Assembly (NCBI GenBank): GCA_947623945.1 | Contig: CANQHU010000001.1 | Coordinates: forward strand, 15,705-79,704 | DNA: 64,000 nt | Reading direction: 5' to 3' | From: an uncultured Clostridia bacterium | GTDB taxonomy: Bacteria; Bacillota; Clostridia; TANB77; CAG-508 | Part shown: one piece after another, positions 22,184-56,250 of the stretch | Position numbering within the stretch: the first letter of the stretch is position 1 | How the letters are laid out: every line of letters starts with the position of its first letter | The notes under the pieces: generated by a model | Database searches by the model: none | What the model saw: the letters and a program-made list of their open reading frames with translations, nothing else | What the model was told of the DNA's origin: nothing | Translations under genes and position numbers: made by a program

Positions 22184-24199
22184 TTATACTCCTACGATAT
22201 ATACCGACTCCCCGTCTATTTCGCTTCGGAATTTATTATACCCCTGCATGGCCAAATTGGCAATATCTTGTGTAAAAGTCGACAGGGGCGTTGTCACTGG
22301 CAGATATAAGCCCCGGTTAAACAACGGTTTTCCGATTTTGTCCGCCAACTGCTTTAAGACGGAATCCACGACGGCAATGTCATAGCATTCCGTAATGGCA
22401 ATCGAGGCATTTAACGGGTCCGCAATCTCCTTATATTTGAAACGGGGTTTGCCTTTCACATAGATGAGCAGCGGGACTTCCGCCGTGGCATAGGTCATAT
22501 AGTGCGCTAACTCCTGTACGACGATGTTCTTGACATTTCTCTTTGCGTCACGGGCGCCGCCTCGTTCGGTATCCGTGCTGGTTCTATCCTTTACAATATA
22601 CGGAATCACATCATCAGAAACAATGATACGCCGCTCATCGGTCTCTGCCACCTCAATGACATCCTTTAAGGTTCGTCTTGCAATTTTCTCCAATGCTTCG
22701 CTGGGGAGCGGGTGGAACGGAACGATAGCATCCAGACGGCCAAGTACCGCGGTCTCAAAGACATCGGAATCCGCTAACGCCTTATACACCAGCTCCGAAT
22801 CGGCTTTGGCGTCCAGACTTTGATGTTTGGCCATGTTCTGATATACTTCCGAGCCTAAGTTCGTTGTCAGATTGATAATCGCACCGCAAAAGGAGGCCAC
22901 CCGGTCCGGGTTTTCCGAATCCGTCAAGCGGGCGTCGTCTAATACCTGCAATAAGATATTCATCGCTGCCCGGGAGGACTTATCAACCTCATCAATCAAG
23001 ATATAGGCATTCGGCGTCGACCAAACGGCCCGGAACAGGGCATCAGCAAATTCGCTTGCCGTCTCCTTATTGGAATATCTTGACATATCAAATCGCTTTA
23101 GTGGAAGACGCATGGTCTCTGAAATAATCTTCGCCAGCTCGGTTTTACCGGTACCGGTGGTTCCAGTGCTGATAAAGGAGCATTTCGGCCGGTCAATGTC
23201 CCCAAAGCCGCAGGCCGCCATTTCAAGGAGATGCACGACCACGGAAATCGCATTATCCTGATGATAAAGTCTGGTCTGTAATGCAGAAATCACATCGGTC
23301 ACATTGACCTCATTATCAATATCAATCCCATGCGTTCGCCGGACGACCCGCTTTAATAACGGACGGCTGATGACCTTTTCCGTGGCCAGTCCCAGCTCCT
23401 TTGGTGAAAAGAACTCCTTGCAGAGCGTGCCGTCTTTCACATACTCCCGTTTGACGGTATCGCCAATAACGGAATTTAACAAATCAATGCTGGCACGAGG
23501 CTGGGCATTGCTTAAAAGAATCCGCTTGGATTCCATATAAATATCCTCTAAGATATTTTCATCTAACAATTCATACACCCCATGCTGTTTGGCCCGGTTT
23601 TCCAAAATATGAATAACCGCCTTTTTCGGCAATTCGGTCAATTTTATCTGTAAGAAACGCTGGTCTAACGCCCGGTTCTTTGCAATGGAATCATTATACT
23701 CCTGAAAGGTGGTCGCCGCTATCAGACGAAATCCGTTGATAGCGCTTTTCTCCAGACGGGGCTTTAAGGACTCCATTAGGCTTGGAGAAATCTCCGCAAT
23801 TTTGTGAAACTCATCAATGAATAAGACAACAATCACATCATGGTCTTTGGAATATTGCCCGGCCTCATCCAACAGTTGATTAAATCCGGTGAGCAGGGCG
23901 TTATCCCGGTCGGTGTCTTTGTCAATCAATCGCTCCGGATTAACCTCTAATACCAGATAATAAGGAATGGAATCCTTATCATAGGCAAAGCCCTGCACAT
24001 AGGCGGTTTTACCGGTACCGGGCTCGGCCAAGAGCACGATGTTTGCCTTTTCCGGATTTCGTAATCCCCTTCTCAATTCTCCGATATCCCGTCCGATGAT
24101 ATCGGCCGGAGGCGGCGGCATAATATTGGCGCCTTTATATAACATAGGATAATTTTTACTTTCGTTCAAAAATGTCGTTGCGTGTTTGGCTGTTCGCAT
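22184..24199 (-). CDS. Clp/Hsp100-type double AAA+ ATPase (671 aa)
   Basis: ORF track 22184-24283. Start moved to M29 (MRTAKHA), which has SD aaaggagagg. D1: IIGRD...VLLAEPGTGKTAYVQGFA, Walker B VLFIDEFH, LIAATTFQEY...ALDQRF. D2: FISTGTTGTGKTELAKII, YILIDEVDK, LQVLDDARLTD. Collinear with ClpA/ClpB/ClpV. Confidence 0.8.
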   Translation of the reverse strand: MRTAKHATTFLNESKNYPMLYKGANIMPPPPADIIGRDIGELRRGLRNPEKANIVLLAEPGTGKTAYVQGFAYDKDSIPYYLVLEVNPERLIDKDTDRDNALLTGFNQLLDEAGQYSKDHDVIVVLFIDEFHKIAEISPSLMESLKPRLEKSAINGFRLIAATTFQEYNDSIAKNRALDQRFLQIKLTELPKKAVIHILENRAKQHGVYELLDENILEDIYMESKRILLSNAQPRASIDLLNSVIGDTVKREYVKDGTLCKEFFSPKELGLATEKVISRPLLKRVVRRTHGIDIDNEVNVTDVISALQTRLYHQDNAISVVVHLLEMAACGFGDIDRPKCSFISTGTTGTGKTELAKIISETMRLPLKRFDMSRYSNKETASEFADALFRAVWSTPNAYILIDEVDKSSRAAMNILLQVLDDARLTDSENPDRVASFCGAIINLTTNLGSEVYQNMAKHQSLDAKADSELVYKALADSDVFETAVLGRLDAIVPFHPLPSEALEKIARRTLKDVIEVAETDERRIIVSDDVIPYIVKDRTSTDTERGGARDAKRNVKNIVVQELAHYMTYATAEVPLLIYVKGKPRFKYKEIADPLNASIAITECYDIAVVDSVLKQLADKIGKPLFNRGLYLPVTTPLSTFTQDIANLAMQGYNKFRSEIDGESVYIVGV

Positions 24200-24223
24200 T
24201 CCGTTCCTCTCCTTTCCGCACTT

Positions 24224-24274
24224 ATTATAACAGGAAATGACTGTCTTGAAAAGACACTCTTTTTTTACTATAAT
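24224..24274. promoter_or_regulatory. Back-to-back promoters with overlapping -35 elements (AAA+ operon leftward, zinc-ribbon genes rightward)
   Basis: Plus strand: TTGAAA 24246-24251, 17 nt, TATAAT 24269-24274. Minus strand: TTTTCA (24247-24252), 17 nt, TGtTATAAT (24224-24232). Confidence 0.45.
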
Positions 24275-24300
24275 GAAACACAAGAGAGGAGGAAAATCCG

Positions 24301-24624
24301 ATGATGCAAATTACACGAATTGTCTTAACCGTGATACCGGTGACCTTGAGCATTCTTGTCTTTGCCGGGGCCATTGCCGTCATCATCCATGTGATGCGGG
24401 CTATGTATCAGGACGAAAAAGAGGCCAAGCGGAGCCGAAATGCCAAGCAGGAAGAACCCGAATTTATCTTAGAACCGCAAAAGTCCAAAAAGAAACAAAA
24501 AATCCTTTGTCCGTCGTGCGGCAAATTAAACAAAGGTGGCGACACCTGCCGGTATTGCGGCTGTTTCTTGCCAAGGGAAAACCGCCCGGAGACGGCCAAG
24601 CCCAATGTAGAACGGGAGGACTGA
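24301..24624 (+). CDS. Small membrane protein with C-terminal zinc ribbon (107 aa)
   Basis: TM VLTVIPVTLSILVFAGAIAVIIHV. Zinc ribbon CPSCGKLNKGGDTCRYCGC. Confidence 0.6.
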   Translation: MMQITRIVLTVIPVTLSILVFAGAIAVIIHVMRAMYQDEKEAKRSRNAKQEEPEFILEPQKSKKKQKILCPSCGKLNKGGDTCRYCGCFLPRENRPETAKPNVERED

Positions 24625-24625
24625 T

Positions 24626-24943
24626 ATGATGTCTCTTATCTTTACTTTATTGGTTTATCTTCTCATGTTGATTGCCATGCTGTCTCCCTATTTGATAGTC
24701 ATTGCCATTCTATATCTCCGTCATAAACGGAACAAAGAAGCTGCCATTTACGCCAAGCTCGCCAGACAGCGGGAAATCGAACGAAATGAGCAGGAACAAG
24801 AGGAACTGGAGCTTAAGAAACAGAAATTTAAGCGTAAACGCTGTTCCTATTGCGGACGGCTTAACCTCATGGATGCTCCCGTCTGTTTTTCCTGCGGCGG
24901 CGTATTTGAGGAGACAAAAGAAGAAGACGCCACGACATCGTGA
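24626..24943 (+). CDS. Small membrane protein with C-terminal zinc ribbon (105 aa), paralog of 24301-24624
   Basis: TM LLVYLLMLIAMLSPYLIVIAILYL. Zinc ribbon CSYCGRLNLMDAPVCFSCGG. Confidence 0.6.
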   Translation: MMSLIFTLLVYLLMLIAMLSPYLIVIAILYLRHKRNKEAAIYAKLARQREIERNEQEQEELELKKQKFKRKRCSYCGRLNLMDAPVCFSCGGVFEETKEEDATTS

Positions 24944-24956
24944 GCGTCTTCTTTAC
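24923..24956 (+). terminator. Hairpin GAAGACGC-N13-GCGTCTTC spanning the stop codon of 24626-24943
   Basis: An 8-bp stem followed by TTT. Confidence 0.4.
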
Positions 24957-25015
24957 TGGGAAATCATCCACCGATTCTCATCCTCTGCACCTCACTTTCC
25001 TTCATCAAGGGAAAG

Positions 25016-25111
25016 AAAAAGACCGAAAGTATCCGGCCTTTTCCCCAAAGGATTAAAATATGAAACTATTAATGACAAAACTATCGTATCATAACCCATT
25101 CTATCTGTCAA
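25016..25111 (-). ncRNA. Promoter - ~60-nt transcript - terminator unit (m4)
   Basis: Minus strand: TTGACA (25106-25111), 17 nt, TGaTACGAT (25083-25091). Terminator AAAAGGCCG-loop-CGGUCUUUUU (25016-25042). No start codon in the transcript. Confidence 0.4.
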
Positions 25112-25225
25112 GACAAAGAACAAGACCGGACGTCTCCGGTCTTGTTCTCTTTCAAAGTTTAAAAGGAGGCAGTTACGCCTAAGTCACTACACTTTTAGAT
25201 TACCATAAATAGTTTTTGCTGTCAA
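25112..25225 (-). ncRNA. Promoter - ~78-nt transcript - terminator unit (m3) containing UGCCUCCU
   Basis: Minus strand: TTGACA (25220-25225), 17 nt, TGgTAATCT (25197-25205). Perfect 12-bp terminator stem 25119-25146. The anti-SD-like UGCCUCCU is the complement of 25164-25171. Confidence 0.4.
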
Positions 25226-25232
25226 GACAAAG

Positions 25233-25338
25233 AAAAAGACCGAAAGTTTCCGGCCTTTTCCAAAGAATGGTTTCACTAAATGAGCGAGTTAGTGAATATC
25301 AACATCATCAGTTTATCATGAGCGTATTTCCTTGTCAA
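25233..25338 (-). ncRNA. Promoter - ~70-nt transcript - terminator unit (m2)
   Basis: Minus strand: TTGACA (25333-25338), 17 nt, TGaTAAACT (25310-25318). Internal 8-bp hairpin TTCACTAA/TTAGTGAA. Terminator 25233-25259. Confidence 0.4.
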
Positions 25339-25345
25339 GATAAAG

Positions 25346-25495
25346 AAAAAGACCGGAGACAACCCGGTCTTTTCCGGTGTGGGAAACACTTGGTTTCCTA
25401 ACACTAGGAGGCAGCGATTCCTTGCGAAATCGCCCGTAATGAAAAGAAATTATCTTACGCATTCTTATCATAGCATACTGTTCATGAAAAAACAA
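25346..25495 (-). ncRNA. Promoter - ~115-nt transcript - terminator unit (m1) containing UGCCUCCU
   Basis: Minus strand: TTGTTT (25490-25495), 17 nt, TGcTATGAT (25467-25475). Hairpins GCGATT/AATCGC and GGAAAC/GTTTCC. UGCCUCCU is the complement of 25406-25413. Terminator GACCGG/CCGGTC 25351-25369 plus a U5 run. Confidence 0.35.
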
Positions 25496-25509
25496 GAGAC
25501 TCTTCTGTC

Positions 25510-25550
25510 AAAAAAAACCGGCTTGCGTTACCAAATGCAACGCAAGCCGG
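25510..25550 (-). terminator. Intrinsic terminator of the 71-aa gene
   Basis: CCGGCTTGCGTT-9 nt-AACGCAAGCCGG (25518-25550) followed on the minus strand by U8 (25510-25517). Preceded by UGCCUCCU (complement of 25561-25568). Confidence 0.6.
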
Positions 25551-25654
25551 AAAAAACTTAAGGAGGCACACCAAAATGATTGCCATATTCAGTATATCAA
25601 ATTTTCTTCCCAAATGCAAGAGAAAATCCCATATCCGAAGATATGGGATTTTTA

Positions 25655-25870
25655 CTATACAGCTTCGTCAAGTTCTGACTCTGTTGGAGCTTCCTCGATG
25701 GACTGCCCGTTTAAGTATGCTTCCAATTCCGCTTTGCCTTCCGGATTGTCCTTTACATATAGAGCAATCATTTGGAACAGTAACGGCTTCATTGCATCAA
25801 ACTTTGCCTTTTCTGCCGCATATTCCGCCGGTTTGGCATTGGGAATGGATGTTTTCACTGCAAATTTCAT
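25655..25870 (-). CDS. Small acidic protein (71 aa)
   Basis: ORF track. SD aaaggaggg 5 nt before the ATG. The antisense 107-aa ORF 25576-25899 is judged spurious. Confidence 0.6.
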   Translation of the reverse strand: MKFAVKTSIPNAKPAEYAAEKAKFDAMKPLLFQMIALYVKDNPEGKAELEAYLNGQSIEEAPTESELDEAV

Positions 25871-25899
25871 ATGTGCCCTCCTTTTCTAGCTGCATTTAA

Positions 25900-26373
25900 T
25901 TAGAAGAATTTAAACGGGGATATTCCCATTGCAGCAATTCCCAGCGTACCCAAGATAAAATCACTCAATTTGTCAATTCCCTTTTCAAATGGTCCAATTC
26001 CATTGGTTGCCACAAGGCCCACGCAGCCAATCAAAATACAGGTAATCCAACCGGGCATTCGGGTCTGCGGGTTAAATTTGTGCATAGCAAAGGAAATAAT
26101 ACCGGCAACAATTGAGATTGCGAAAATACACCAGCCTACACCGGCCAGACCGCCGCCGCCTAAGCCTTTCTCAAAAAAAGTTTGCATCTTAGTGCCAAAT
26201 TCATTCCAACCGGCAGTACCATCTCCACTGCCGCCCGACATTACTAACAAATTGGTCGTCTGGCTCATTACGGCTGTTATTACCGCAAAGAGAAGCAAGG
26301 ATACCACCTGTCCACGCTTTTTACTGGTTACACTTGTTGTTCCCTTGTACTGGGCGCCTAATTTTGTTTTCAT
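25900..26373 (-). CDS. Small polytopic membrane protein (157 aa), Gly-rich; pilin/VirB2-like or channel subunit position
   Basis: ORF track. SD aaaggagttttaaaATG. Has 3-4 hydrophobic segments (VVSLLLFAVITAV, GVGWCIFAISIVAGIISFAM, WITCILIGCVGLVA). Confidence 0.55.
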   Translation of the reverse strand: MKTKLGAQYKGTTSVTSKKRGQVVSLLLFAVITAVMSQTTNLLVMSGGSGDGTAGWNEFGTKMQTFFEKGLGGGGLAGVGWCIFAISIVAGIISFAMHKFNPQTRMPGWITCILIGCVGLVATNGIGPFEKGIDKLSDFILGTLGIAAMGISPFKFF

Positions 26374-26432
26374 TTTAAAACTCCTTTCGTATGAAATGTT
26401 TTGTATGAAATTTCGTTCTGATTGACAAGTCT

Positions 26433-36439: not shown

Positions 36440-37440
36440 CTAAAAATCACCTTCTAAAAACACGCGAAAAATCACCCTCAAAAAATACCCCTTCCAAACG
36501 GGCTAAAAAACAGGCAAAATTGGAAAAATTTTCCAAGGGGACAAAATGGGGACAAAATTGGGCCTTCGGGGACAAAATTTTGTCCCCATCCTAACACGCA
36601 TAAACACTGGGTTTTTTCGATTTTGGCACTTTTGAGGGGACAAAATGGGGGACATTTTAAAAGTCCAACAAAGCTAGGAAATAAGCCACTTTTTGGGATT
36701 TCTTTTCTCTTTTTGCCCCCATTCTCAAAATCTATATATAGAGCGTAAAATAGAAAAGTTAAGTTTTATATAAAGAGTTGTCAAAAATGGGGACAAAATT
36801 GCAAAAATGCCTTTTCGCCCTTTGTTTATGCGGGTTTGCGGTACTTTTCGGGCGGGGACAAAATTCTCGAACATCTGTTTGGGTGAGCCTCGGAGCCCTT
36901 GATTTTCCTAGCCAAAACAGGGGGACAAAATGGGGACAAAATCGGGGACATTTTTGTCCCCTCGGCGAAATTTTGTCCCCGATTTTTCGTACATATGTTT
37001 GGCAAAATGCCGATTCTTGAGACTATACTTAGGTTTATCGGCATTTTTCGTACATATGTTCGTTTTTTTCGTACATATGTTCGTTTTTTCGTACATATGT
37101 TCTGAACATATGTTTGTTTCCAAACATATGTTTGGGGTTGAATTTCCAAAAACAAACATATGTTCGAGATTTTTGGCTTTATTTTTTCCAAATTTTTCCA
37201 ATTTTGAACCGAACAAGTGTTTGTTTTCTCGAACACTTGTTTGGGTGTTTCTTCGTACATATGTTCGAGAGTGTTTGATACCTCTACCTTATCGAACCCT
37301 TTTGTGTTCAATTACTCCGATTCATCGAACTCCATTTGGTATTCATTCTCTCCCACCCATCGAATACTTTGTGTTCAATCACTCTGACGCATCGAACCCC
37401 AAAAACCATTCGATGTCTCCCACTCATCGAACAAAATAAG
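36440..37440. repeat. Iteron field / probable replication origin (three repeat families + AT-rich DUE)
   Basis: About a dozen GGGGACAAAAT copies (36537-36980), including perfect palindromes ggggacaaaattttgtcccc and ggggacatttttgtcccc. AT-rich tctatatatagagcgtaaaatagaaaagttaagttttatataaag at 36730-36776. About ten (C/T)G(T/A)ACATATGTT(C/T)G palindromes (36988-37270). Six CATCGAA(C) copies and a 32-bp direct repeat (37290-37435). Lies directly upstream of the helicase gene. Confidence 0.6.
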
Positions 37441-39397: not shown

Positions 39398-40612
39398 ATG
39401 AAACATTCGATAAAACACCTTTCACCCTCCTTTTTCTTTCTGCTATTTCACGGAATTTATACGATTATCGTCTGTTTGATTGACGATGGATTTGCCAACC
39501 GGTTTGATGTGGATTCCGTGTGCGCGTTTGGCAGCTATTTAGCCATTTCTTGGATAGCTTATATCATATGTAAGATTGGAAAATATGCGTACCGGGCCAC
39601 TGGAGCCCGTGGCTCGACCTGCTTATTGTTGGGCACCTTCAGTGGTGTTTTCAGTGGATGGCTTCTCTTTTTTACGCATCAGACGATTCCGCTTCTTTTT
39701 GCCTTAACGACACGGCAGCGGGAGATAATGAGCCGGCTTTTATTTGCCACAGGTATTAACTGCTGTATCAATGGGGCGAGCGCCGTGTTGGAATTTGATA
39801 TTATCTTTCACGAGCAAAACAAAAAGGTCGTATGGAGTGATATTCTATACTGGGTATTAGCCATTTCATTGGATATGGTGGTTTACTTATCTCACTTACC
39901 GGTACACTGGCTGATTTATGCCACGGTCATTTCCAATTTAGTGTATACCATTGTGTTACTCATTGGCAGCCCCTTATTACAGGAACCGATTCAGTTCTCT
40001 TTCCTTGCCACCGGCCTGCGTCGGGGCGTCGAGGTTGCCATACAGGATATTCTCGCCGTATGTATCACCGTTTGTTATACGATTGGGGCCAGCCATTTAC
40101 CGGAAAAGCAGTATGCCTTGCATTGTATTGCCTTTGGCATTGTCACGATGGGCGAGGAGCTGGCAGTCAGCTTTGACTTTTATACCTTGCAGCGGCTATC
40201 CCACCGAACACAGAATGTGGTAACATATGCGGAGCGGCATATCAAATGGGCCGGATATCTTTTACTGGGAATCACTTTATTCTTATTGCCTCCCTTTTTG
40301 TGGCTGTATCATGGCGTTGTACCATACGGAGAAGTATTCGGCTGGTGTCTGATTTATATGAGCAGTAATGTGCCATTAGTATTTTACTATTTTTACGACG
40401 CTATTTTAAACAGCTTGTCAGAAACAAAGTATCTCTGGATAAGCTCCGTGATTGGGCTCTTTGTCCGACTGCCGTTATTATATTTGGTATTACACTATCA
40501 TTGGGGCCTACTTGGTATGGGTCTGATTGCTCCCATTGACTTTGCGGCTCGGGTTATCTATTTAAAAGCATATGCCCACCGTGCGGAGCAGCATCTCTTG
40601 ACAAAAAGGTAG
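39398..40612 (+). CDS. Polytopic membrane transporter, MATE/MOP-like (404 aa), paralog of 904-2169
   Basis: ORF track 39368-40612. ATG M11 has SD aaaggaga. LIDDGFANRFDVDSVCAFGSY parallels IIDSSFANHLGLDEICVASAC. Confidence 0.5.
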   Translation: MKHSIKHLSPSFFFLLFHGIYTIIVCLIDDGFANRFDVDSVCAFGSYLAISWIAYIICKIGKYAYRATGARGSTCLLLGTFSGVFSGWLLFFTHQTIPLLFALTTRQREIMSRLLFATGINCCINGASAVLEFDIIFHEQNKKVVWSDILYWVLAISLDMVVYLSHLPVHWLIYATVISNLVYTIVLLIGSPLLQEPIQFSFLATGLRRGVEVAIQDILAVCITVCYTIGASHLPEKQYALHCIAFGIVTMGEELAVSFDFYTLQRLSHRTQNVVTYAERHIKWAGYLLLGITLFLLPPFLWLYHGVVPYGEVFGWCLIYMSSNVPLVFYYFYDAILNSLSETKYLWISSVIGLFVRLPLLYLVLHYHWGLLGMGLIAPIDFAARVIYLKAYAHRAEQHLLTKR

Positions 40613-40701
40613 CATTGTGGTATTATGATGTTGGGTGTAATCCACTTTCTTTCCAGTGGGTTTGATGGGGAAAAGTGCTTTGTGAGGCAAAGCACTTTTT
40701 T
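40598..40701 (+). ncRNA. Promoter - ~69-nt transcript - terminator unit (x1)
   Basis: TTGACA 40598-40603, 17 nt, TGgTATTAT 40618-40626 (overlaps the MATE stop codon). Hairpin CCACT/AGTGG. Terminator AAAGTGCTTTG-tgagg-CAAAGCACTTT 40672-40698 plus T run. Confidence 0.4.
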
Positions 40702-40708
40702 CTTTGTC

Positions 40709-40737
40709 TTGACGAAGCATTCGATTCCCCTTATAAT
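40709..40737 (+). promoter_or_regulatory. Promoter TTGACG-17-TATAAT driving the leader of the 65-aa gene
   Basis: TTGACG 40709-40714, TATAAT 40732-40737. Preceded by the module tttttctttgtcttgac, also seen (reverse strand) at 25100-25340. Confidence 0.5.
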
Positions 40738-40795
40738 AAAACTGCTCGCAGTAATACTTTCATTGGCGCCTCTCGTTTTTTACGCAGGGGCGTCA

Positions 40796-40863
40796 TCCCT
40801 AAAAGGAGAAATATCACAAAATGTGAATCTCCCTAAAAGGAGAAATATCACAAAATGTGAATC
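40796..40863 (+). repeat. Perfect 34-bp tandem duplication, each copy with SD-like aaggag, palindrome TCACA-aaa-TGTGA and an ATG-TGA start-stop
   Basis: tccctaaaaggagaaatatcacaaaatgtgaatc occurs twice (40796-40829, 40830-40863). Confidence 0.8.
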
Positions 40864-40927
40864 AAAATCAATTAACCGATTTGTGTCGTAAGTATATAAC
40901 GGAAGTCACCATTTCTTAGGAGGGAAT

Positions 40928-41125
40928 ATGGACTTGTTTATGATGTGTTTGCCATTCATGATATATGTTCATGGAATAGGCAACCAAATTGATTACATTA
41001 CACGGTATTATACAGAAGAGGATATCGAACAGTTAAAACAGCAGAGTCCGGATACGACGATTCCGGCGTGTTTGTTCTTTTTCCTTTCCGTGGGATTAAG
41101 TTTGTGGTCATTATTATCGTTTTAA
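40928..41125 (+). CDS. Small membrane protein (65 aa)
   Basis: ORF track. SD aggagggaatATG. C-terminal TM CLFFFLSVGLSLWSLLSF. Confidence 0.45.
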   Translation: MDLFMMCLPFMIYVHGIGNQIDYITRYYTEEDIEQLKQQSPDTTIPACLFFFLSVGLSLWSLLSF

Positions 41126-41151
41126 TCAGAAAGTTTAGGAGATAACTTCTC

Positions 41152-41328
41152 TTGACAATTTTTTCCATATATGGTATTCTATATATATCACAAAAGATAT
41201 TCTATGTTTCACAAATGAATTTCACATTGCTGTACGAAAGAAAGAAGAACTCTATGTTTCACAAATGAATTTCACATTGCTGTACGAAAGAAAGAAGAAC
41301 CGTCTTGTCCCCGCAAGGCGGTTCTTCT
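41152..41328 (+). ncRNA. Promoter - ~140-nt non-coding transcript built from two 50-nt repeats - long hairpin (x2)
   Basis: TTGACA 41152-41157, 17 nt, TGgTATTCT 41172-41180. The hairpin AGAAGAACCGTCTTG-loop-CAAGGCGGTTCTTCT at 41293-41328 has only a weak U tract. Confidence 0.4.
41201..41300 (+). repeat. Perfect 50-bp tandem duplication containing four TTTCACA half-sites
   Basis: tctatgtttcacaaatgaatttcacattgctgtacgaaagaaagaagaac occurs twice. Confidence 0.85.
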
Positions 41329-41329
41329 C

Positions 41330-41358
41330 TTGCGTATTTGTTTCCTTTCTATTATAAT
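41330..41358 (+). promoter_or_regulatory. Promoter TTGCGT-17-TATAAT of the adhesin gene
   Basis: TTGCGT 41330-41335, TATAAT 41353-41358. SD aaaggaga 5 nt before ATG 41396. Confidence 0.5.
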
Positions 41359-41395
41359 GAAGATAGTGAATGTCACAATAAGAAAGGAGAAATGA

Positions 41396-44300
41396 ATGAT
41401 GCAACATAAAACCATACTTTTGGTTGTGTTCTGTTTACTGGGATTGTTCCTTCATCCGATAATCGGAAAAGCGGAAAGCAAAATGATTTCCATTTCCTCT
41501 TCGGAAGAATGGGATATCTTTTTATCGCAGTCTGACAGTACATGGGACAACCATGAGAATACAATTCATTTACAGGAGGAGACGGATGTTACCATTTCCT
41601 TGTCGGAAGAAATTTCTCTTAAAGAAAATATCACTTTTATGGCGCCGCCTTCGACGACTATCACATTTGATTTTACAAATGGTCAATTTACCGGAATGGG
41701 ACATCTTCTTGTGTCCGATGTATCTTCCGTCATCTTTTCCGGCGAAATGGTCAGTCATATGGAGGTTTCTAATACGAATGTGTCTTGGACGCAATCCCCA
41801 TCTCAAAACTCTTTGGGAATCTTAGATAGCATTTTTACGGAAGCACCCATTACTGTAACGCCAAATAAACCGATTCCCTTTATCTTAAAAGATAGTTCCT
41901 TAACCAATTCGCCTATTATGACACCTCGCACGACTACCGTTTTGATTGACGGCGTGACCTTAGACCATAGTGATGTGCACATCAATACGATACGAATGGG
42001 CGCTGATGTACCATCTCATCAAATTCTGGACAGTACATGGACAGACAGCTCTTTGATATTAGAAGGGGAAACCAGCGGCGGTGGTGTGTTTACTTTTCAA
42101 CAATTAACTTCTTATGATAACACAAAGGGACTTGTTACTTATAACCGGCCTTCTACTTCCGCTAATCTGGGCTTTTTAGCAATGCGTTTAAATGAGGTTC
42201 ATGCCTATCGCTGCAAGGAAAGTCCAACCAAATTCGTCGATGTTTCAATGGGTTGTTATATTTCTTATATTAGAAATTGTTCTTTTGAAGGTACAACAGA
42301 GGCGTCTGACAAAACTGGCCTTCTGGTAGATTATGGTGGAGTGGAAGAAATTAATGGTTTAACGGTTGACCACTTTGGCACGGGTATTTCCATACAATAT
42401 GGAAATGTGAGAGGAGATGCAGTGCAAGCCGTTGGTGATACAGATAAGTTAATCACCAGCGGATATACATCCAGATGTAAAGCTAGTTGGCAGGATTTTC
42501 ATATCAAAAATTGTACAAATGGTGTGGCTGCAAATTATCAGAGTTTTTTTTCTGCGGACAGTGAAATTTTTGATTTTTCTATAGAAGGAATAGAAGACAA
42601 CACGACTGGAGAAGGCTTTGTCATGTATAACGGTTTATCAGATTCTAATTTAACAGACGGGCCAGAATATTTGATACCGAAAGGAAATCTTTATATTCAT
42701 GATGGAGACATTAAAAATTTTAAGATTGGAATGCACTGTTATTCCAGCTCTGCGTGGTATGTTGACAACATTGCGATTCAAAATGTAAATCAAGGCTTAT
42801 ATGCGCAAAATAGTATTGCCGGTATTTTCCGACGAATGCATATCATGAATGGTGTCGGTGAGAATAATCAAGGTCTTTATACAACATCTGCAACAGATTT
42901 TGTATTATTAGATGGCCATATTGATAATTTTAAGACAGGTGGTTATACAGATAGTGGAGTGCCTTTGATAATAGGCGGAACCATTGAAAATTGTGATGTT
43001 GGTTTGACAACTTATCATACTGCAATCTATGGTGTAAAATTCATTCATAATAAAATTGGTTGGAAACAACGCAGTGCACCAAACAGTCTTGGATTTTGTT
43101 TATTTGACGGACAAGATAAAGAAAACGCAATCGGTATAGATTTAAACAATATAGGTACAAGAGCGTGTGTTGGTGTATCAGATGTTTTTGTATTATACCC
43201 GGAGGCTAACACAAAAGAAGGAGAGGGATGTTTTGAAAATTATAATTATATCAAACAATTAGCGTCTATTTCTGAAACTTATTCAGATATCAAAAAATTT
43301 GAAATTAAAAACTGTAAAATAGGAATTGACGCGAATGGAAAAAGTGGAGCGGCCGATGTTGCAGCCGTTTCTATTCACGATTGCCAAACAGGTATGAATT
43401 TACCAAATTATCAGAGTTATTTTGGAGGAGGTGTAGAAGTATATAATTGTGATATTGGTTGTTATTTTGGTTCCATTTATACCATATCAAATATCATGGC
43501 AAAAGACGAGAGTGTAAATTATCCGGTTACTTTCCGAGATTGCAAAATTGGTATGAAACAAAATAAAGAAGAAAATGGGACCATATTAACCAGTGGTATG
43601 GTATCACCCAATTATCCGGCTATTTTATTTGAACAATGTGAAATTGGATTTTATTCTGCTCTTACACTATTACGACAAGTTCCTCTTGGATTTGTCGATA
43701 ATGAAATTGGCTGGAAAATTCCAAATGAATATGGAGAAACCAAAGTAAATAGCTGGTCTCCATTATTGTATCTGAAAGGCAATGAAGTCGGTGTAGATGC
43801 AGAAGAAGACACGCTCCCTGATACTGGGAATGATTTTAACAACTTTACCGCAGATAAATTATATATGCGTGACAATGAAATTGGTTTGCGTCTTACCGGC
43901 CGTGTTTATGTGAATACTTTAATGGATGTAAAAAATTCAGATATTGAAATTGCCAACGAACATGGCCTATTAATTATAGGGGGAGGGGCGTCTAAAGACA
44001 ATGCTCTTACTTTCACGGTTCCAGATACCAGTTTACAAGAAACAGGCCGTTTTGTTGCCACGGGAAAAACCTCTTCTCAAGAGGCAGTCAAAAATGCAGA
44101 AATTACTAATGAAGGTCTGGTGTTAAATCCTGAAGACCCCGGTATTTATCGGTTCACACCAAAAGAGGGAGGTGGTCATCAGCATGATGATAAATTTATC
44201 TCCGGCAGCCCCGGCGACCCCGGCAGCAACTGGTATTTGGTCATCCATAGCGGCTGCTATGTCAATTATGATTATGAAACGAACGGTGGCGAAAGCTGGA

Positions 44301-47047: not shown

Positions 47048-47056
47048 GGGATGTTC

Positions 47057-47148
47057 TTGACAAAGAAATCAGCCTTTGTTATACTCAAGTTGCGTGAAAT
47101 CTTTGAATATTTGGGAATGGAGCTGGGTATTACCCGGCTCTTTCCTTT
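47057..47148 (+). ncRNA. Promoter - ~57-nt transcript - terminator unit (p1)
   Basis: TTGACA 47057-47062, 17 nt, TATACT 47080-47085. Terminator GAGCTGGGT/ACCCGGCTC 47120-47140. Confidence 0.4.
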
Positions 47149-47152
47149 CGTC

Positions 47153-47300
47153 TTGACAAGAAATGTTTCTTATGATACGATAATCTTACCTTGTAAGTTT
47201 GTTTTTGGACACCTCCAAAACAGATACAGGTGCGGTACTCATTCACGAGACCAACCTATCCTCAAATGCCTTTGCGAAAGCAGGGGCATTTCCCCATTCT
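47153..47300 (+). ncRNA. Promoter - ~110-nt transcript - GNRA-capped hairpin unit (p2), contains CCUCC
   Basis: TTGACA 47153-47158, 17 nt, TGaTACGAT 47173-47181. CCTCC at 47212-47216. An 11-bp stem AATGCCTTTGC-gaaa-GCAGGGGCATT at 47265-47290. Confidence 0.35.
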
Positions 47301-47316
47301 AATTTCTACTATTGTA

Positions 47317-47420
47317 GATACAACGGTATAACCTTATGATATAATAACAATGCATAAATTGTCTTCTTATAAGCATAAATTCCGGAAAAGAGCCTGCTCT
47401 GTCAGGTTCTTTTCTATTTT
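47317..47420 (+). ncRNA. Promoter - ~68-nt transcript - terminator unit (p3)
   Basis: Extended -10 TGaTATAAT 47337-47345 (weak -35 GATACA). Terminator AGAGCCTG/CAGGTTCT 47389-47410 plus T run. Confidence 0.4.
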
Positions 47421-47424
47421 CCCA

Positions 47425-47530
47425 TTGACAAATTCAATTCGTTATGTTATGATTATCATGGAATTTGTATTGACTTTCATGGCATAAGTCAACTTACTGG
47501 AAAAGAGCCTGCTTTGTCAGGCTCTTTTTC
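47425..47530 (+). ncRNA. Promoter - ~70-nt transcript - terminator unit (p4)
   Basis: TTGACA 47425-47430, 17 nt, TATGAT 47448-47453. Hairpin TTGACTT/AAGTCAA. Terminator AAGAGCCTG/CAGGCTCTT 47503-47526 plus T5, near-identical to the p3 terminator. Confidence 0.45.
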
Positions 47531-47543
47531 ATTGACAATTCGG

Positions 47544-47685
47544 TTGACAAGGTTTTCTGTTTTTTTTATAATAAGAGTGTCGAGTGTTACTCTTTTTGTG
47601 TTTGCTTGTTCTACGAGTTAGGACGAGAATAGTGTCTCCTTAAAAGTATCCGAAAATGGACGGTTCTTGCCGTTCATTTTTGGTT
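47544..47685 (+). ncRNA. Promoter - ~105-nt transcript - terminator unit (p5)
   Basis: TTGACA 47544-47549, 17 nt, TATAAT 47567-47572 (full consensus). Terminator ATGGACGG/CCGTTCAT 47656-47677 plus T5. Confidence 0.45.
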
Positions 47686-47701
47686 TTTGTTCACCACCCG
47701 A

Positions 47702-47825
47702 TTGACAGAATTTGTGAACTTATGGTAGAATGAAATTGCCATAGATAGGTTCTCATTTGGACGGTCCAAATGCGTCCTATACCATTCCGAGGCTCCCTAT
47801 CTCATAGGGAGCCTCCTTTTTTTTC
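47702..47825 (+). ncRNA. Promoter - ~88-nt transcript - terminator unit (p6)
   Basis: TTGACA 47702-47707, 18 nt, TGgTAGAAT 47723-47731. A 12-bp terminator GAGGCTCCCTAT/ATAGGGAGCCTC at 47789-47815 plus T8. Confidence 0.45.
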
Positions 47826-47873
47826 GGCTGCGAATACTCGCAGCCTTTTTCTTGGGGCTAAGCCCCATACCCC
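47826..47873 (+). repeat. Two-hairpin module copy 1 (variable stem with TAC loop + TGGGGC..GCCCCA + CCCC)
   Basis: GGCTGCG-aatact-CGCAGCC, ttttt, TGGGGC-taa-GCCCCA, ta, CCCCA. Confidence 0.5.
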
Positions 47874-47957
47874 AATTAATTTTTGAATTCCTTAATTTGC
47901 CATCGGCCGGCTGTTACAGGTCGGCCATTTCCTCCCCTTATTTATTTTTTGTTAGTA

Positions 47958-48085
47958 AGACGAATGGAGCATCAGGCAAGCATAGCTTAAGGTGGATGCC
48001 GGGGCTATGAACAGTTTCCGTTGTAGAGGGTACGCTGAATCCCGGGCCGGGATATTCGACTGGTATCCCTGTTCCATTCGTTTTT
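47958..48085 (+). ncRNA. Candidate ~125-nt structured RNA closed by a 9-bp stem and ending in a U run
   Basis: ACGAATGGA (47960-47968) pairs with TCCATTCGT (48073-48081), followed by TTTT. Internal helices GCATC/GATGC, AAGC/GCTT and GGGATA/TATCCC. CCGGGAT (48047-48053) can alternatively pair with ATCCCGG (48039-48045). No promoter identified. Confidence 0.25.
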
Positions 48086-48103
48086 CTTCTTTGTAAGAGG
48101 GTG

Positions 48104-48132
48104 TTGCTTTCCGCTTTCGATTCTATTATAAT
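48104..48132 (+). promoter_or_regulatory. Promoter TTGCTT-17-TATAAT of 48163-49002
   Basis: TTGCTT 48104-48109, TATAAT 48127-48132. Confidence 0.45.
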
Positions 48133-48162
48133 AGACATAGGAATGGAAAGGAGAGAGAATCT

Positions 48163-49002
48163 ATGGCCAAAATTAAATTACATTTGCCTCCCATGTATAA
48201 TCGGTGGCATCAGATAAAAAAGGAAAATACGAAATTTGCGCTGTATCAGTATTTGAGCGCATTGACTGATATAATGGATAGAATAAACGGAACTACATCG
48301 GAATTGGTCGGTTACTTGGAAGACCATGCCTTTCCCGATGCTTATGTGCCAGATATTCCGGTGGTAGAGGGTGAGCTATCCAGTCAATCGTCAATTACGA
48401 TTCCGGAGGAATATGAGGAATTGTTGGACGAGCCGGGATTATCCCCTGCTACGGCATTTCTATTAATCATTCAGATAACGATGCGATTATCGGCCCAATA
48501 TGGGACTTCCCTGTTAAAATTAACACGAGTCGTTGAAAAGTTGATTCCTGATTCCGATGAAGAACCAGAGGAAATCATAGCACATCAGCTGCATATTACA
48601 AAGCAGTCAAGGAGTAGGAACGATACAATTTCGCAAAAGGAGCGAAATCAAGTTCAGCAGGACGAGTCGAACGATACTGTTCCGCATGACAAGTCGAACG
48701 CCGTTCCTTCCCGGTCGAACGATACAGTTCGACCTACCGCGTCGAACGATACAGTTCGACCCAACCCGTCGAACGATACAGTTCGACCCAACCCGTCGAA
48801 CGATACAGTTCGACCCAACGCGTCAGAGAAGAAAATGCCTCCAAAGGCGTCCTCTTCGCCTCAGCCGGTCGAGTCTTCACCTACTGAGGAGCCAGTAAAT
48901 GAAGAACTTCTCTCCCGCTTACAAGGATTGGTGGACCGGGGCAAAGACCTTATGGAAGAAACCCCAGTGGAAACCAATCCCCTTTTAAAAGATTTCCTGT
49001 AA
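48163..49002 (+). CDS. Hypothetical protein (279 aa) with SNDTVRP(N/T)(P/A) nonapeptide repeats
   Basis: ORF track. SD aaaggagagagaatctATG. Confidence 0.6.
   Translation: MAKIKLHLPPMYNRWHQIKKENTKFALYQYLSALTDIMDRINGTTSELVGYLEDHAFPDAYVPDIPVVEGELSSQSSITIPEEYEELLDEPGLSPATAFLLIIQITMRLSAQYGTSLLKLTRVVEKLIPDSDEEPEEIIAHQLHITKQSRSRNDTISQKERNQVQQDESNDTVPHDKSNAVPSRSNDTVRPTASNDTVRPNPSNDTVRPNPSNDTVRPNASEKKMPPKASSSPQPVESSPTEEPVNEELLSRLQGLVDRGKDLMEETPVETNPLLKDFL
48666..48821. repeat. 27-bp phased repeats inside the CDS, four of them perfect 20-bp palindromes GTCGAAC-gataca-GTTCGAC
   Basis: Palindromes at 48714-48733, 48741-48760, 48768-48787 and 48795-48814. Degenerate copies at 48666 and 48693. Confidence 0.85.
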
Positions 49003-54289: not shown

Positions 54290-56250
54290 TACTGCGACTG
54301 CTGAAGCCATATTCTGATTGGAATATCAATATGCGTATTAGGAATAATCATATTCCTTTTGGAATATCAATATGCGTGTAAGGAATGAAACATCACCATT
54401 CGGTGGTGAATTCGGAATCTTCTTATTCCTGCTGGAAATATTTTATCAACCGCGTTGATATCCTATCAACAGCGTCAATGTAATTGTCCCGCTGCCGCAG
54501 GGAGGAAAAGGGAACCAAAGAGACAAACATTCTCTTTTATTTGCTATGATGGGAGGTCTCTATACAAAAAGGGAATAAAAAGGGACGAAAATTATCTTAT
54601 TTGTACGAAAAGGGAACCAAAGGGACGAAAAGGGACAAAGGATACCAAAAGGGAACCAAAGGGACAAAAAGTGCAATCGAACACCAGTTCCTCTGAACAC
54701 CAGTTCGACCTCAAACAGCGGGCCCGCGGGAACCGAGGAACTCGAATCGAGGAACTCGAATCGAGGAACTCGAATCGAGGAACTCGATATCTTCTGCCTG
54801 AGGCAGAGAAATCTTCTCCATTTCTCGTGAAGAAAAGAAGAATCTTCTCTTTGGAGGAGGAAGTAGATGCATATTCTCTTTGGAAGCAGAGGTAGAAGTA
54901 TTCTCTTTTGCAGGTATTTGGAGTATTCTCTATCTACTCTATTTTATTATGATTCTCAATCTTTGCGGGTATTTGGAGTATTCTCTATTTGTTCTATTTT
55001 CTCTATATATACTTTTTTGCGGGTATTTGGAGTATTCTCTATCCGCTATGTTTTCTTACTATTCTCAATCTTTGCGGGTATTTAAAGTATTCTCTATCCG
55101 CTATGCTTTCTCTATATATACTTTCTTTGCGGTTATTTAGAATATTCTCTATCCGCTACATCTCGCTATATAGCATTTTGTAGCAAGTGTTCAGAAGTCT
55201 TCTATCTGCTCTATTTTTTTATATATACTTTCTTTGCGGGTATTTGAAATATTCTCTATCTTGATAACATATAACATCTTGTAGGTTAGTCATCATCTGT
55301 ATCTCCTCCGGGTTTTGCGGGTGGTAGAAAGACCCTGCAAGGTAGAGACCTTAAGAGGCTAAGACGCTGAGATATCCAGACCTTAAGACTTTGAGACATT
55401 AAGACGGCCAGAGACTGAGACCTTGAGACGGCCAGACTATAAGACCTTGAGACGCCCAAAGGCTGAGACAGCCAGAGGAGGAGACCTTGAGACGCCCAGA
55501 GACCAGCAGGGAGTGAGAGGGAGAAGAGGGGAAGAAGAGAGAGGAGAAATGAGTAAAAAGTACCAAAAAGGGAACCAAAGGGACGAAAAGGGACAAAAAG
55601 GGAGGATAAATAATAGCTATCTCGGGAACCCTTGCAGTTACTGGGTTTTCTACCCTTTTCCGGGGTCTTGTTTGCGGTGATTTGGTACTAATAAAGGAGG
55701 CAAAATGACCAAAAAGGGACGAAAAGGGACAAAAAGGGACGGAAAAGAGATGACAGGTAGGAGGCTTTGGGAAGGAGGGGCAAATAAGTGGGTAATTTTG
55801 CCCTAATTTAGTTGACATAATATTGGAATGTAACCACAAAGGGACAAATAAGGACGAAAAGGGATAAATAGAGAACAAAAGGAGCTATTGCACTTGGCGT
55901 GTGAAGGTAAGTGGGGCTACCGGAGAGGAGAAAAGAGGGACAAAAGAGGATAAAAAGGGAACAAAAGGGATTGAAAGAGAGGGAAAAACCCCTAAAGGGA
56001 CGAAAAGGAGATATTGGTGCCATTTTTGCGGAAAATGCAACATCTGGAGGGGTATATCAGAGGCGAATCGGGGTGGTTTGGTGACTGATGAGGGCGTGTG
56101 TGTAATTTGGGGCGTGTAGAGGATATCGTTGGCGAGCGGGGCGTGTAAACATCAGTGCTGGAGGGTGTGTGAGAGGAGGGGGAAGAGCATAAGGGAAAAT
56201 TGGTGTTTCAACCAATTTCACAACCCTCTTTCTCTTTCGTTTGATGTGTG
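54290..56250. repeat. ~2-kb non-coding island packed with at least seven short-repeat families
   Basis: Families seen: ggaatatcaatatgcgt x2 (54320, 54361). Palindrome TATCAAC-cgc-GTTGATA (54445-54461). AAAGGGA(A/C)(C/G/A)AAA, more than 20 copies in five clusters. tcgaacaccagttc...gaacaccagttcga (54675-54712). gaggaactcgaatc x4 at 14-bp period (54735-54790). gcgggtatttggagtattctctat x6-7 at ~55-bp period (54908-55260). (c)cttgagacg(g/c)cca x~8 (55340-55500). ggggcgtgt x4 (56090-56170). The track ORFs here are low-complexity artefacts. Confidence 0.75.

What the first reader, a model, noticed from the sequence alone, without database searches (positions are those of the whole stretch)
25016..25568. 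Four tandem promoter - short transcript - terminator units on the minus strand, two with a UGCCUCCU anti-Shine-Dalgarno motif
The four units lie between the convergent 71-aa gene and the zinc-ribbon genes. Each has a -35 TTGACA (one TTGTTT), a 17-nt spacer and an extended -10 (TGnTACGAT, TGnTAATCT, TGnTAAACT, TGnTATGAT). Each gives a 60-115-nt stretch without a start codon and ends in an intrinsic terminator. The terminator-plus-35 junction (GGTCTTTTTCTTTGTCTTGACA) is itself repeated. The same junction recurs on the plus strand at 40695-40714. UGCCUCCU occurs in units m1 and m3 and in the 3' UTR of the 71-aa gene (complements of 25406-25413, 25164-25171 and 25561-25568). It is perfectly complementary to the AGGAGG SDs used throughout this element. 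This suggests translation-repressing sRNAs.
Basis: partly seen in the sequence, partly recalled or inferred. Interest (0 to 1): 0.65.

Follow-up and report, generated by a model that had tools for sequence, protein, structure and literature searches.

The report
Array of five orphan small-RNA genes
A 0.6-kb gap in a 182-kb plasmid-like element from a rabbit gut bacterium holds five back-to-back "promoter, short non-coding RNA, terminator" units, three of which carry a motif that could pair with ribosome-binding sites; they look like regulatory small-RNA genes of a known kind, but their expression and targets are unproven.

Summary
The minus strand of 25010-25619 has five units, not four. Each has a -35 box, an exact 17-nt spacer, an extended -10 (TGnTAnnnT) and a T(-1)G(+1) start, followed by 65-120 nt with no credible ORF and a strong intrinsic terminator. 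The promoter pattern occurs 19 times in the window against 2.75 expected, five of them here. Across units only the promoter elements and the hairpins are conserved. The hairpins hold 12 G.U pairs on the sense strand and none on the other, so they work as RNA on that strand. A ~96% variant in another sample has 0 differences in u4/u3, against 4.3% in the flanking genes. UGCCUCCU occurs three times. The third copy lies in its own unit (u0), not in the 71-aa gene's 3' UTR. Two more clusters of such units lie at 40598-41340 and 47057-47855.

I found no Rfam match, no homologues, no target beyond generic Shine-Dalgarno (SD) pairing and no usable RNA reads. Related elements carry other cargo at this spot.

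Best reading: lineage-specific multicopy small RNAs, like LhrC1-5 in logic and NsiR1 in layout. Transcription is likely. Translational repression is plausible but untested.

The parts
25623..25652 (-). Terminator hairpin of the 71-aa gene (UCCCAUAUC-UUCG-GAUAUGGGA followed by UUUUCUCUU). It separates that gene from unit u0.
   Evidence: A 13-nt perfect inverted repeat, I6; sequence.
25591..25619 (-). u0 promoter: TTGCAT, 17 nt, TGaTATACT. T-G at positions +6/+7 after the -10 puts the predicted start at G 25584.
25508..25584 (-). u0 RNA, about 77 nt. It has a 5' hairpin, UGCCUCCU (25568-25561), a U-rich linker and a 14-bp terminator (25550-25518) followed by U8.
   Evidence: MFE -32.5, z -5.5; terminator scan; motif.
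25467..25495 (-). u1 (= m1) promoter: TTGTTT, 17 nt, TGcTATGAT. A leftover TTGACA sits at 25509-25504, directly after the u0 U tract.
25341..25460 (-). u1 RNA, about 120 nt. It has three 5' hairpins and a fully unpaired UGCCUCCU (25413-25406). The terminator is at 25375-25345.
   Evidence: MFE -43.7, z -4.8; the six CCUCCU bases of the motif have a mean unpaired probability of 0.94.
25310..25338 (-). u2 (= m2) promoter: TTGACA, 17 nt, TGaTAAACT.
25228..25303 (-). u2 RNA, about 76 nt. It has a 5' hairpin and a terminator at 25261-25232 with 3 G.U pairs. It has no CCUCC motif.
   Evidence: MFE -22.2 on the sense strand against -14.5 on the antisense strand.
25197..25225 (-). u3 (= m3) promoter: TTGACA, 17 nt, TGgTAATCT.
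25114..25190 (-). u3 RNA, about 77 nt. It has UGCCUCCU (25171-25164) and a near-palindromic terminator at 25148-25117. Relative to u1, the stem shows one compensatory change (A-U to C-G).
   Evidence: MFE -32.0, z -6.0; I3; 0 differences in the variant.
25083..25111 (-). u4 (= m4) promoter: TTGACA, 17 nt, TGaTACGAT.
25010..25076 (-). u4 RNA, about 67 nt. The 5' 30 nt are unstructured and end in AAUCCUUUGG. The terminator is at 25046-25013 with 5 G.U pairs.
   Evidence: MFE -18.3 on the sense strand against -7.9 on the antisense strand; 0 differences in the variant.
24984..25009 (-). Decayed sixth junction. It is in register with the promoters but reads TGATGA/AGGATG, so it is not a promoter.
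   Evidence: D1 copy at 61% identity; alignment row 'deg'; one variant difference, at 24994.
24915..24950 (.). Hairpin at the 3' end of the second zinc-ribbon gene. A T-rich tail follows it only on the minus strand.
24301..24943 (+). Two paralogous genes, convergent with the array (107 aa at 24301-24624, 105 aa at 24626-24943). Each protein has an N-terminal TM helix and a C-terminal zinc ribbon. Array and genes form a lineage-specific cassette.
   Evidence: Pfam Zn_ribbon_3 hit that is weak and below the curated cut-off; only one homologue among 5.8 billion proteins.
40598..41340 (+). Second cluster of the same kind. It holds orphan unit b1 (40598-40708), a long leader (b2) and orphan unit b3 (41152-41335).
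47057..47855 (+). Third cluster: about six promoter-short RNA-terminator units (promoters at 47057, 47153, about 47320, 47425, 47544 and 47702). Unit a5 has CUCCUU in the linker before its terminator.

Best explanation
The stretch 25010-25619 (minus strand) is an array of five independently transcribed small non-coding RNA genes, u0-u4, of about 65-120 nt. It sits in a cargo hot-spot of a 182-kb plasmid-like element.

Shown by the sequence:
- Each unit has a housekeeping-sigma promoter of the same class the element uses for its protein genes (TTGnnn, 17 nt, TGnTAnnnT, T-1/G+1).
- Each has a non-coding body and a strand-specific intrinsic terminator.
- Each terminator's U tract runs straight into the next -35 box.

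Inferred:
- The RNAs are trans-acting base-pairing regulators.
- u0, u1 and u3 are siblings. They present a CU-rich anti-Shine-Dalgarno seed (UGCCUCCU) at the 3' foot of a hairpin, in the linker before the terminator. The seed pairs with AGGAGG-type ribosome-binding sites of element or host mRNAs and blocks translation initiation.
- u2 and u4 have other seeds. u4 and u3 may additionally pair with read-through transcripts of the convergent zinc-ribbon operon.
For: - Five extended -10 promoters lie on one strand within about 540 nt, against about 0.012 expected (my estimate; coordinates).
- When the five units are aligned, the only invariant positions are TC-TTG (-35), TG, TA...T (-10) and TG at the start. 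The spacers are unrelated.
- The same promoter pattern precedes real genes of the element, for example at 26461, 33742 and 37457.
- All five terminators fold far better than shuffles, with z-scores of -3.7 to -6.0. They fold better on the minus strand than on the plus strand (u2 -22.2 against -14.5; u4 -18.3 against -7.9).
- The five hairpins hold 12 G.U pairs on the sense strand. Across 11 such hairpins in the window the count is 25 on the sense strand and 0 on the antisense strand.
- No SD-led ORF lies within the units.
- In the ~96% variant from another sample, 25010-25196 (u4 and u3) shows 0 differences in 187 nt. The adjacent 858 nt show 37 (4.3%). My estimate of the probability is about 3e-4. 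The switch falls at the end of the u4 terminator. Positions 25567-25621 are also invariant.
- CCTCCT occurs 4 times against 0.37 expected in the predicted short RNAs. TGCCTCCT occurs 3 times in 420 nt.
- The motif is unpaired in u1 and partly exposed in u0 and u3.
- Precedents exist. [quoted passage not shown] NsiR1 has 12 tandem copies, each with its own promoter (PMC9045159).
Against: - There is no direct evidence of transcripts. The only RNA run (X5) is kept as contigs at depth about 5. It has no assembled sequence for 25197-25566 (the u3 promoter, u2, u1 and the u0 terminator).
- No homologue exists in Rfam, IMG/VR or the JGI metagenomes.
- Related elements have different cargo at this spot and no array. 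Covariation therefore cannot be tested.
- Target searches give only values of about 2 SD.
- The full octamer complement AGGAGGCA is not the SD of any confident gene in the 64 kb.
- The zero divergence in the variant could reflect a recent recombination tract.
Confidence: 0.45

Rival explanations
1. The array controls the convergent zinc-ribbon operon in cis. Five strong promoters fire head-on against it. The u4 and u3 RNAs are perfectly complementary to any read-through 3' extension of that mRNA. The array would act by transcriptional interference and/or 3'-overlap antisense pairing, as in convergent type I toxin-antitoxin loci or NsiR1.1/hetF.
For: The array and the two zinc-ribbon genes form one lineage-specific cassette. 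The plus strand has no good terminator after 24943: the 24915-24950 hairpin lacks a T run on the plus strand, and the u4 hairpin is weak on the plus strand (-7.9). The RNA-run contig is continuous over 24152-25196. In NsiR1, the proximal copy is a cis-antisense regulator.
Against: None of the RNA bodies is complementary to the zinc-ribbon coding regions or 5' UTR. The two other clusters of such units (40598-41340, 47057-47855) have no convergent gene. Nothing marks the zinc-ribbon proteins as toxins. One unit would be enough.
Confidence: 0.15
2. The RNA products have no function. The units are promoter and terminator modules left over from, or duplicated during, cassette turnover at a cargo hot-spot. 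At most they insulate the conjugation-like operon from neighbouring transcription.
For: The site is variable between related elements. The three clusters flank lineage-specific cargo, namely the zinc-ribbon genes and the 1883-aa adhesin. The terminator-promoter junction was clearly spread by local duplication. A decayed sixth junction exists. No homologues of the RNA bodies are found anywhere.
Against: Insulation needs terminators, not five near-consensus promoters with exact spacing and optimal start sites. u4 and u3 are invariant while the neighbouring genes and the decayed junction diverge. The bodies carry stable 5' hairpins and an over-represented 8-mer.
Confidence: 0.2
3. The repeats are DNA-level protein-binding sites, for example a centromere or iteron-like array of palindromes spaced 103-114 bp apart.
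For: There are four 57-nt direct repeats with spacings of 103, 114 and 113 bp, each containing a palindrome.
Against: The palindromes are conserved as structure, not as sequence; the u0 stem is unrelated to the others. They contain G.U pairs that would be A.C mismatches on the other strand (12 against 0 in the five hairpins). The invariant positions are exactly the promoter elements. Iteron-like repeats of the element lie elsewhere, at 54300-56000 and 36900-37400.
Confidence: 0.03
4. The units encode tiny peptides on the minus strand (for example a leaderless 34-aa hydrophobic peptide in u0), or the plus strand carries small genes whose SDs are the complements of the CU-rich motifs.
For: An NTG triplet lies at positions +5 to +7 after every -10 box. 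On the plus strand, AGGAGG-9-ATG at 25576 opens a 107-codon ORF, and AAAGGA-8-ATG at 25060 opens a 40-codon ORF.
Against: The NTG is explained by the T(-1)G(+1) start preference. That places the start at the G, so no AUG remains at the 5' end. The minus-strand ORFs run through terminators and into the next promoter. The 107-codon plus-strand ORF is antisense to the conserved 71-aa gene. The differences in the variant fall on its codon positions 1 and 2, but mostly on position 3 of the 71-aa gene (my count). No plus-strand promoter is found in the array.
Confidence: 0.03

Closest known systems
LhrC1-5 multicopy sRNAs of Listeria monocytogenes (PMC4132741)
   Same: Both have five sibling sRNA genes, each with its own promoter and terminator. 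[quoted passage not shown] In LhrC these motifs pair with the G-rich SD region and block translation.
   Different: There is no sequence or structure homology and no Rfam hit. The motif here is CCUCCU, not UCCC, with one copy per RNA rather than three. The bodies of u0-u4 are unrelated to each other. The promoters look constitutive rather than controlled by a two-component system. The genes are on a mobile element.
NsiR1 tandem array of Nostoc sp. PCC 7120 (PMC9045159)
   Same: The layout is the same: head-to-tail repeats, each a promoter plus an sRNA of about 60 nt. In NsiR1 the peripheral copies diverge and the proximal copy also acts as a cis-antisense RNA.
   Different: NsiR1 copies are identical or nearly identical RNAs with a cell-type-specific promoter. 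Here only the terminator-promoter junction is repeated and the RNA bodies differ. The phylum is different, and the genes are on a mobile element.
csRNAs of streptococci, and sibling sRNAs in general (review PMC4211561)
   Same: Both involve 2-6 sibling sRNAs per genome, some in tandem. From my own knowledge, not checked here, csRNAs carry anti-SD and anti-AUG stretches.
   Different: csRNAs depend on CiaR-type promoters and share a conserved fold. No such repeat or similarity exists here.
Convergent type I toxin-antitoxin loci (for example par/Fst of pAD1; from my own knowledge)
   Same: A short, strongly transcribed RNA gene lies convergent with small membrane-protein genes on a plasmid-like element.
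   Different: There is no complementarity to the neighbouring mRNAs except through hypothetical read-through. The neighbouring proteins are 105-107 aa with zinc ribbons and are not known toxins.

Membership tests
Orphan sRNA gene (promoter + non-coding body + intrinsic terminator) | Sigma-70/SigA-type promoter | tested here: met
   All five units have TTGnnn, 17 nt and TGnTAnnnT with T-1/G+1.
Orphan sRNA gene (promoter + non-coding body + intrinsic terminator) | Rho-independent terminator on the same strand, 50-300 nt downstream | tested here: met
Orphan sRNA gene (promoter + non-coding body + intrinsic terminator) | No translated ORF | tested here: met
   There is no SD-led ORF confined to a unit. 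The sense strands contain no GGAGG or AGGAG.
Orphan sRNA gene (promoter + non-coding body + intrinsic terminator) | A discrete transcript is observed | not testable with these tools
   The only RNA run is held as low-depth contigs, with no strand information or read ends.
Anti-SD (CU-rich seed) translational repressor sRNA, LhrC/RNAIII/RsaE type | A CU-rich motif complementary to the SD lies in a loop or single-stranded stretch | tested here: inconclusive
   The motif is present in u0, u1 and u3. It is unpaired in u1 (0.94) and half paired in u0 (0.60) and u3 (0.41). It is absent from u2 and u4.
Anti-SD (CU-rich seed) translational repressor sRNA, LhrC/RNAIII/RsaE type | A specific target mRNA with extended pairing at its ribosome-binding site | tested here: inconclusive
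   The best translation-initiation-region hits lie only about 2 SD below the mean. The host genome and the other two-thirds of the element were not available.
LhrC / csRNA / other curated sRNA families (Rfam 15) | Match to the family covariance model | tested here: not met
   There are no hits at gathering score. All hits at E<=10 lie far below the cut-offs, and none is to LhrC or csRNA.
NsiR1-type tandem sRNA array | Head-to-tail repeats, each with its own promoter and terminator | tested here: met
NsiR1-type tandem sRNA array | The repeats encode the same or nearly the same RNA | tested here: not met
   Only the 57-nt terminator/-35/-10 junction is repeated (61-77% identity). The bodies are unrelated apart from the 8-mer.
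Type I toxin-antitoxin (RNA antitoxin) | The antitoxin RNA is complementary to the toxin mRNA | tested here: not met
   None of the bodies pairs with 24301-24943. A cis overlap would need untested read-through.
CRISPR or mini-array / tRNA-like RNAs | Short identical repeats with spacers, or a cloverleaf fold | tested here: not met
   The repeats are 57 nt at 61-77% identity and consist of a terminator plus a promoter. ARAGORN finds no tRNA or tmRNA.

The most novel reading that the evidence does not exclude
The element carries a battery of at least 13 orphan small-RNA genes in three arrays that flank its lineage-specific cargo. The members with a 16S-3'-end-like CCUCCU(U) tract (u0, u1, u3, a5) do not act on single targets. 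Instead they act as abundant SD 'sponges' or mimics that bias translation in the host cell between strong-SD and weak-SD messages, which would be a mobile-element strategy for translational control. The terminator U tract doubling as the upstream element of the next promoter would make such units a compact, easily duplicated module.
Probability: 0.07. Interest if true: 0.75.

Novelty: new member of a known kind. Interest (0 to 1): 0.42.

Why it matters
If the RNAs are made, this would be a clear case of a multicopy small-RNA array carried by a large, uncharacterised mobile element of gut Firmicutes, a group in which almost no riboregulation is known. The compact terminator-promoter junction shows how new small-RNA genes can arise by duplicating a junction around a new body. 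The three arrays give about 13 ready candidates for small-RNA-seq. As it stands, the finding is a well-formed prediction of a known type of regulator, not a new mechanism.

Tried and rejected
1. Rfam at gathering score on the whole window, and at E<=10 on 24800-25800 and E<=0.5 on 40500-48250: only noise.
2. tRNA/tmRNA scan: none.
3. blastn of 24300-26400 against PLSDB plasmids and INPHARED phages: no match.
4. Related loci through the ClpB-like ATPase: genome contigs gave only relatives at <=33% identity, and IMG/VR gave none. Among 1800 homologues in the protein collection, contigs at 74-79% identity (L005-L009) and 71% identity (L010) carry other genes and no array at this spot.
5. Zinc-ribbon protein homologues: a single hit, from the RNA-run variant.
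6. Primase (DUF5906) homologues at <=63% identity: four 19-22-kb loci show 3-4 extended -10 promoters each, at operon starts, with no clusters.
7. Junction pattern in IMG/VR: one unrelated jumbo-phage hit behind tRNA genes. The junction is therefore a generic Firmicute terminator/-35 arrangement.
8. Pattern TGCCTCCT..AAGACCGG..CCGGTCTT in IMG/VR and the JGI metagenomes: 12 hits. Several are the reverse complement of an SD plus start codon next to a terminator, one lies in a tRNA-like sequence, and none resembles the units.
9. Complementarity of the RNA bodies to both strands of the window: only self-antisense matches. Pairing of the seeds to translation initiation regions: weak.
10. RNA evidence: X5 contigs end at 25196 and 25567 with nothing assembled between, which is uninterpretable at depth about 5. 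Two other runs of that study lack the element.
11. Pfam, PHROGs, NCBIfam and PADLOC on the neighbouring proteins: no toxin, defence or RNA-chaperone link.
12. Small-peptide and plus-strand ORF readings: rejected (plus the codon-position argument).
Full report
**What is there**

I read the minus strand of 24600-26100. After the 71-aa gene (25870-25655) comes a hairpin, UCCCAUAUC-UUCG-GAUAUGGGA followed by UUUUCUCUU (25652-25623; I6). Five units of the same design follow.

The promoters are:
- u0: 25619-25591 (TTGCAT, TGaTATACT)
- u1: 25495-25467 (TTGTTT, TGcTATGAT)
- u2: 25338-25310 (TTGACA, TGaTAAACT)
- u3: 25225-25197 (TTGACA, TGgTAATCT)
- u4: 25111-25083 (TTGACA, TGaTACGAT)

All five have a 17-nt spacer and a TG extension. 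Each is followed by 65-120 nt and a GC-rich hairpin with a U tract. The hairpins are at 25550-25518, 25375-25345, 25261-25232, 25148-25117 and 25046-25013. In fact that motif lies downstream of that gene's own terminator and of a promoter.

**Is it more than chance?**

- The pattern TTG-N17(ending TGN)-TANNNT has 19 matches in 64 kb, against 2.75 +/- 1.65 in shuffles. Five of them are here, on one strand, within about 540 nt. I estimate the expectation for such a stretch at about 0.012.
- The other matches mostly sit in front of real genes (26461, 33742, 37457) or in two further clusters. This is therefore the element's normal promoter type.
- When the five promoters are stacked, the only invariant positions are TC-TTG, TG, TA...T and a T-G at positions +6/+7 after the -10. 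That T-G is the preferred pyrimidine(-1)/purine(+1) start. The spacers share nothing.
- All five RNAs fold much better than shuffles, with z-scores from -3.7 to -6.0.
- The folds are strand-specific. u2 gives -22.2 on the sense strand against -14.5 on the other, and u4 gives -18.3 against -7.9.
- The five hairpins hold 12 G.U pairs on the sense strand and none on the other. Across 11 such hairpins in the window the count is 25 against 0.
- The u3 stem shows a compensatory A-U to C-G change relative to u1 (sequence).

These features fit RNA terminators. They do not fit double-stranded DNA binding sites.

**Coding potential**

The sense strands contain no GGAGG or AGGAG. No SD-led ORF is confined to a unit.

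A plus-strand ORF (25576-25899, with AGGAGG-9-ATG) is antisense to the conserved 71-aa gene. In the variant, the differences fall on its codon positions 1 and 2 and mostly on position 3 of the 71-aa gene (my count). I therefore treat it as spurious.

**The motif**

- TGCCTCCT occurs five times in the window against 1.4 expected. Three copies are in u0, u1 and u3.
- In 1213 nt of 13 predicted short transcripts, CCTCCT occurs 4 times against 0.37 expected.
- The motif sits at the 3' foot of a hairpin, in the linker upstream of the terminator. It is unpaired in u1 (0.94) and partly exposed in u0 (0.60) and u3 (0.41).
- Unit a5 in the third cluster has CUCCUU in the equivalent position.
- AGGAGG is the SD of only about a dozen of roughly 60 genes here, by my count.
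- The full complement AGGAGGCA is not the SD of any confident gene.

**Surroundings**

- The window comes from a rabbit gut metagenome.
- The element assembles as a 181,759-bp contig in two independent assemblies. Relatives are 165-250 kb.
- The neighbouring genes include a ClpB-like AAA ATPase, a lysozyme-domain protein, a 1229-aa protein, a DUF5906 primase, a 1883-aa surface protein and BspA-type LRR proteins. In relatives there are also a NikA-like protein next to the primase and sortase/pilin genes. I infer that this is a plasmid-like, probably conjugative element.
- In relatives at 74-79% ATPase identity, the gap between the small gene and the ATPase holds quite different genes and no array.
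- The zinc-ribbon protein has a single homologue among 5.8 billion proteins.
- The array plus the two convergent zinc-ribbon genes therefore form a lineage-specific cassette in a cargo hot-spot.

**More of the same**

Two further clusters of the same kind exist on the plus strand, at 40598-41340 and 47057-47855, the latter with about six units. They flank the 1883-aa surface-protein gene, which relatives lack at that place. Four primase-linked loci of relatives have only 3-4 such promoters per 19-22 kb, all at operon starts.

**Conservation**

The only variant is a ~96% identical sequence in an RNA-seq run from another study. Its 1044-nt contig has 37 differences in 24152-25009 (4.3%; 7.6% in the spacer 24944-25009) and none in 25010-25196, which covers u4 with its promoter and the u3 RNA. 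I estimate the probability of that at about 3e-4. Positions 25567-25621 (the u0 promoter and 5' end) are also unchanged. This fits purifying selection, but a recombination tract could give the same result.

**Expression**

This could not be tested. The run is stored as contigs at depth about 5, without strand information or read ends. Nothing is assembled for 25197-25566. Contig ends in the other clusters fall at repeats or at scattered positions. Two other runs of the same study lack the element.

**Homologues and targets**

- Rfam finds nothing.
- The plasmid and phage collections give nothing.
- The junction 22-mer has one unrelated hit in IMG/VR.
- A pattern specific for u1/u3 gives 12 unrelated hits in IMG/VR and the JGI metagenomes.
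- The bodies have no long complement elsewhere in the window.
- Seed pairing to 63 translation initiation regions gives at best about 2 SD. Examples are u0 with the 71-aa gene's own SD, and u1/u3 with AAAGGAGGCAAAAUG at 55695.

**Interpretation**

The most economical reading is an array of five small-RNA genes. It grew by duplicating the terminator-promoter junction (D1; a decayed sixth copy lies at 24984-25009) around different bodies. Three bodies share a CU-rich anti-SD seed.

- In logic the array resembles LhrC1-5 (PMC4132741).
- In layout it resembles the NsiR1 array (PMC9045159).
- It is not a member of either family.

Rivals: cis control of the convergent zinc-ribbon operon (0.15), junk or insulator modules (0.2), DNA binding sites (0.03) and small peptides (0.03).

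I put about 0.75 on the units being transcribed as discrete RNAs. I put about 0.35-0.4 on anti-SD translational repression as the function of u0, u1 and u3.

Noticed in passing
window 47057-47855 (+): A third cluster of about six promoter-short RNA-terminator units lies downstream of the 1883-aa surface-protein gene. Units a3 and a4 share a 30-nt terminator at 93% identity. Unit a5 has CUCCUU in the linker before its terminator.
   Followed up: partly
window 40598-41340 (+): A cluster with orphan unit b1 (promoter 40598-40626, terminator 40667-40703), a leader of about 185 nt (promoter 40709-40737) running to a 65-aa gene at 40928, and orphan unit b3 (promoter 41152-41180).
   Followed up: partly
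window 40796-40863 (+): An exact 34-nt tandem duplication inside that leader. Each copy carries AAGGAG, 12 nt, then ATG-TGA, a start-stop mini-ORF. This may be a translational control device.
   Followed up: no
window 41201-41300 (+): An exact 50-nt tandem duplication inside orphan unit b3.
   Followed up: no
window 47955-48100 (+): A 146-nt multibranch structure closed by a 14-bp stem followed by a U tract, just upstream of the 279-aa gene at 48163. MFE -50.9, z -2.6. It has no Rfam match and is unchanged in the ~96% variant. It is a candidate structured leader or ncRNA.
   Followed up: partly
window 54300-56000 and 36900-37400: Dense iteron-like direct repeats: 10/20-nt AAAAGGGAC units, 55/109-nt units, 14-nt x4 and 24-nt x3, plus 11-, 20- and 32-nt repeats upstream of the primase gene. 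These are candidate replication or transfer origins.
   Followed up: no
relatives of window 22184-24283: Many homologues of the ClpB-like ATPase are about 1040 aa rather than 671 aa. They carry intein/homing-endonuclease domains (PF14528, PF05204).
   Followed up: no
window 25576-25899 (+): A 107-codon ORF with a perfect AGGAGG-9-ATG lies antisense to the 71-aa gene. The substitution pattern in the variant argues that it is not coding. Its SD is simply the complement of the u0 motif.
   Followed up: yes
L001 11025-11046 (IMG/VR jumbo-phage contig): The same terminator/-35 junction (GGTCTTTTTCTTTATCTTGACA) follows a tRNA cluster in an unrelated 194-kb phage contig. The junction may therefore be a common compact design in Firmicute mobile elements.
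   Followed up: no
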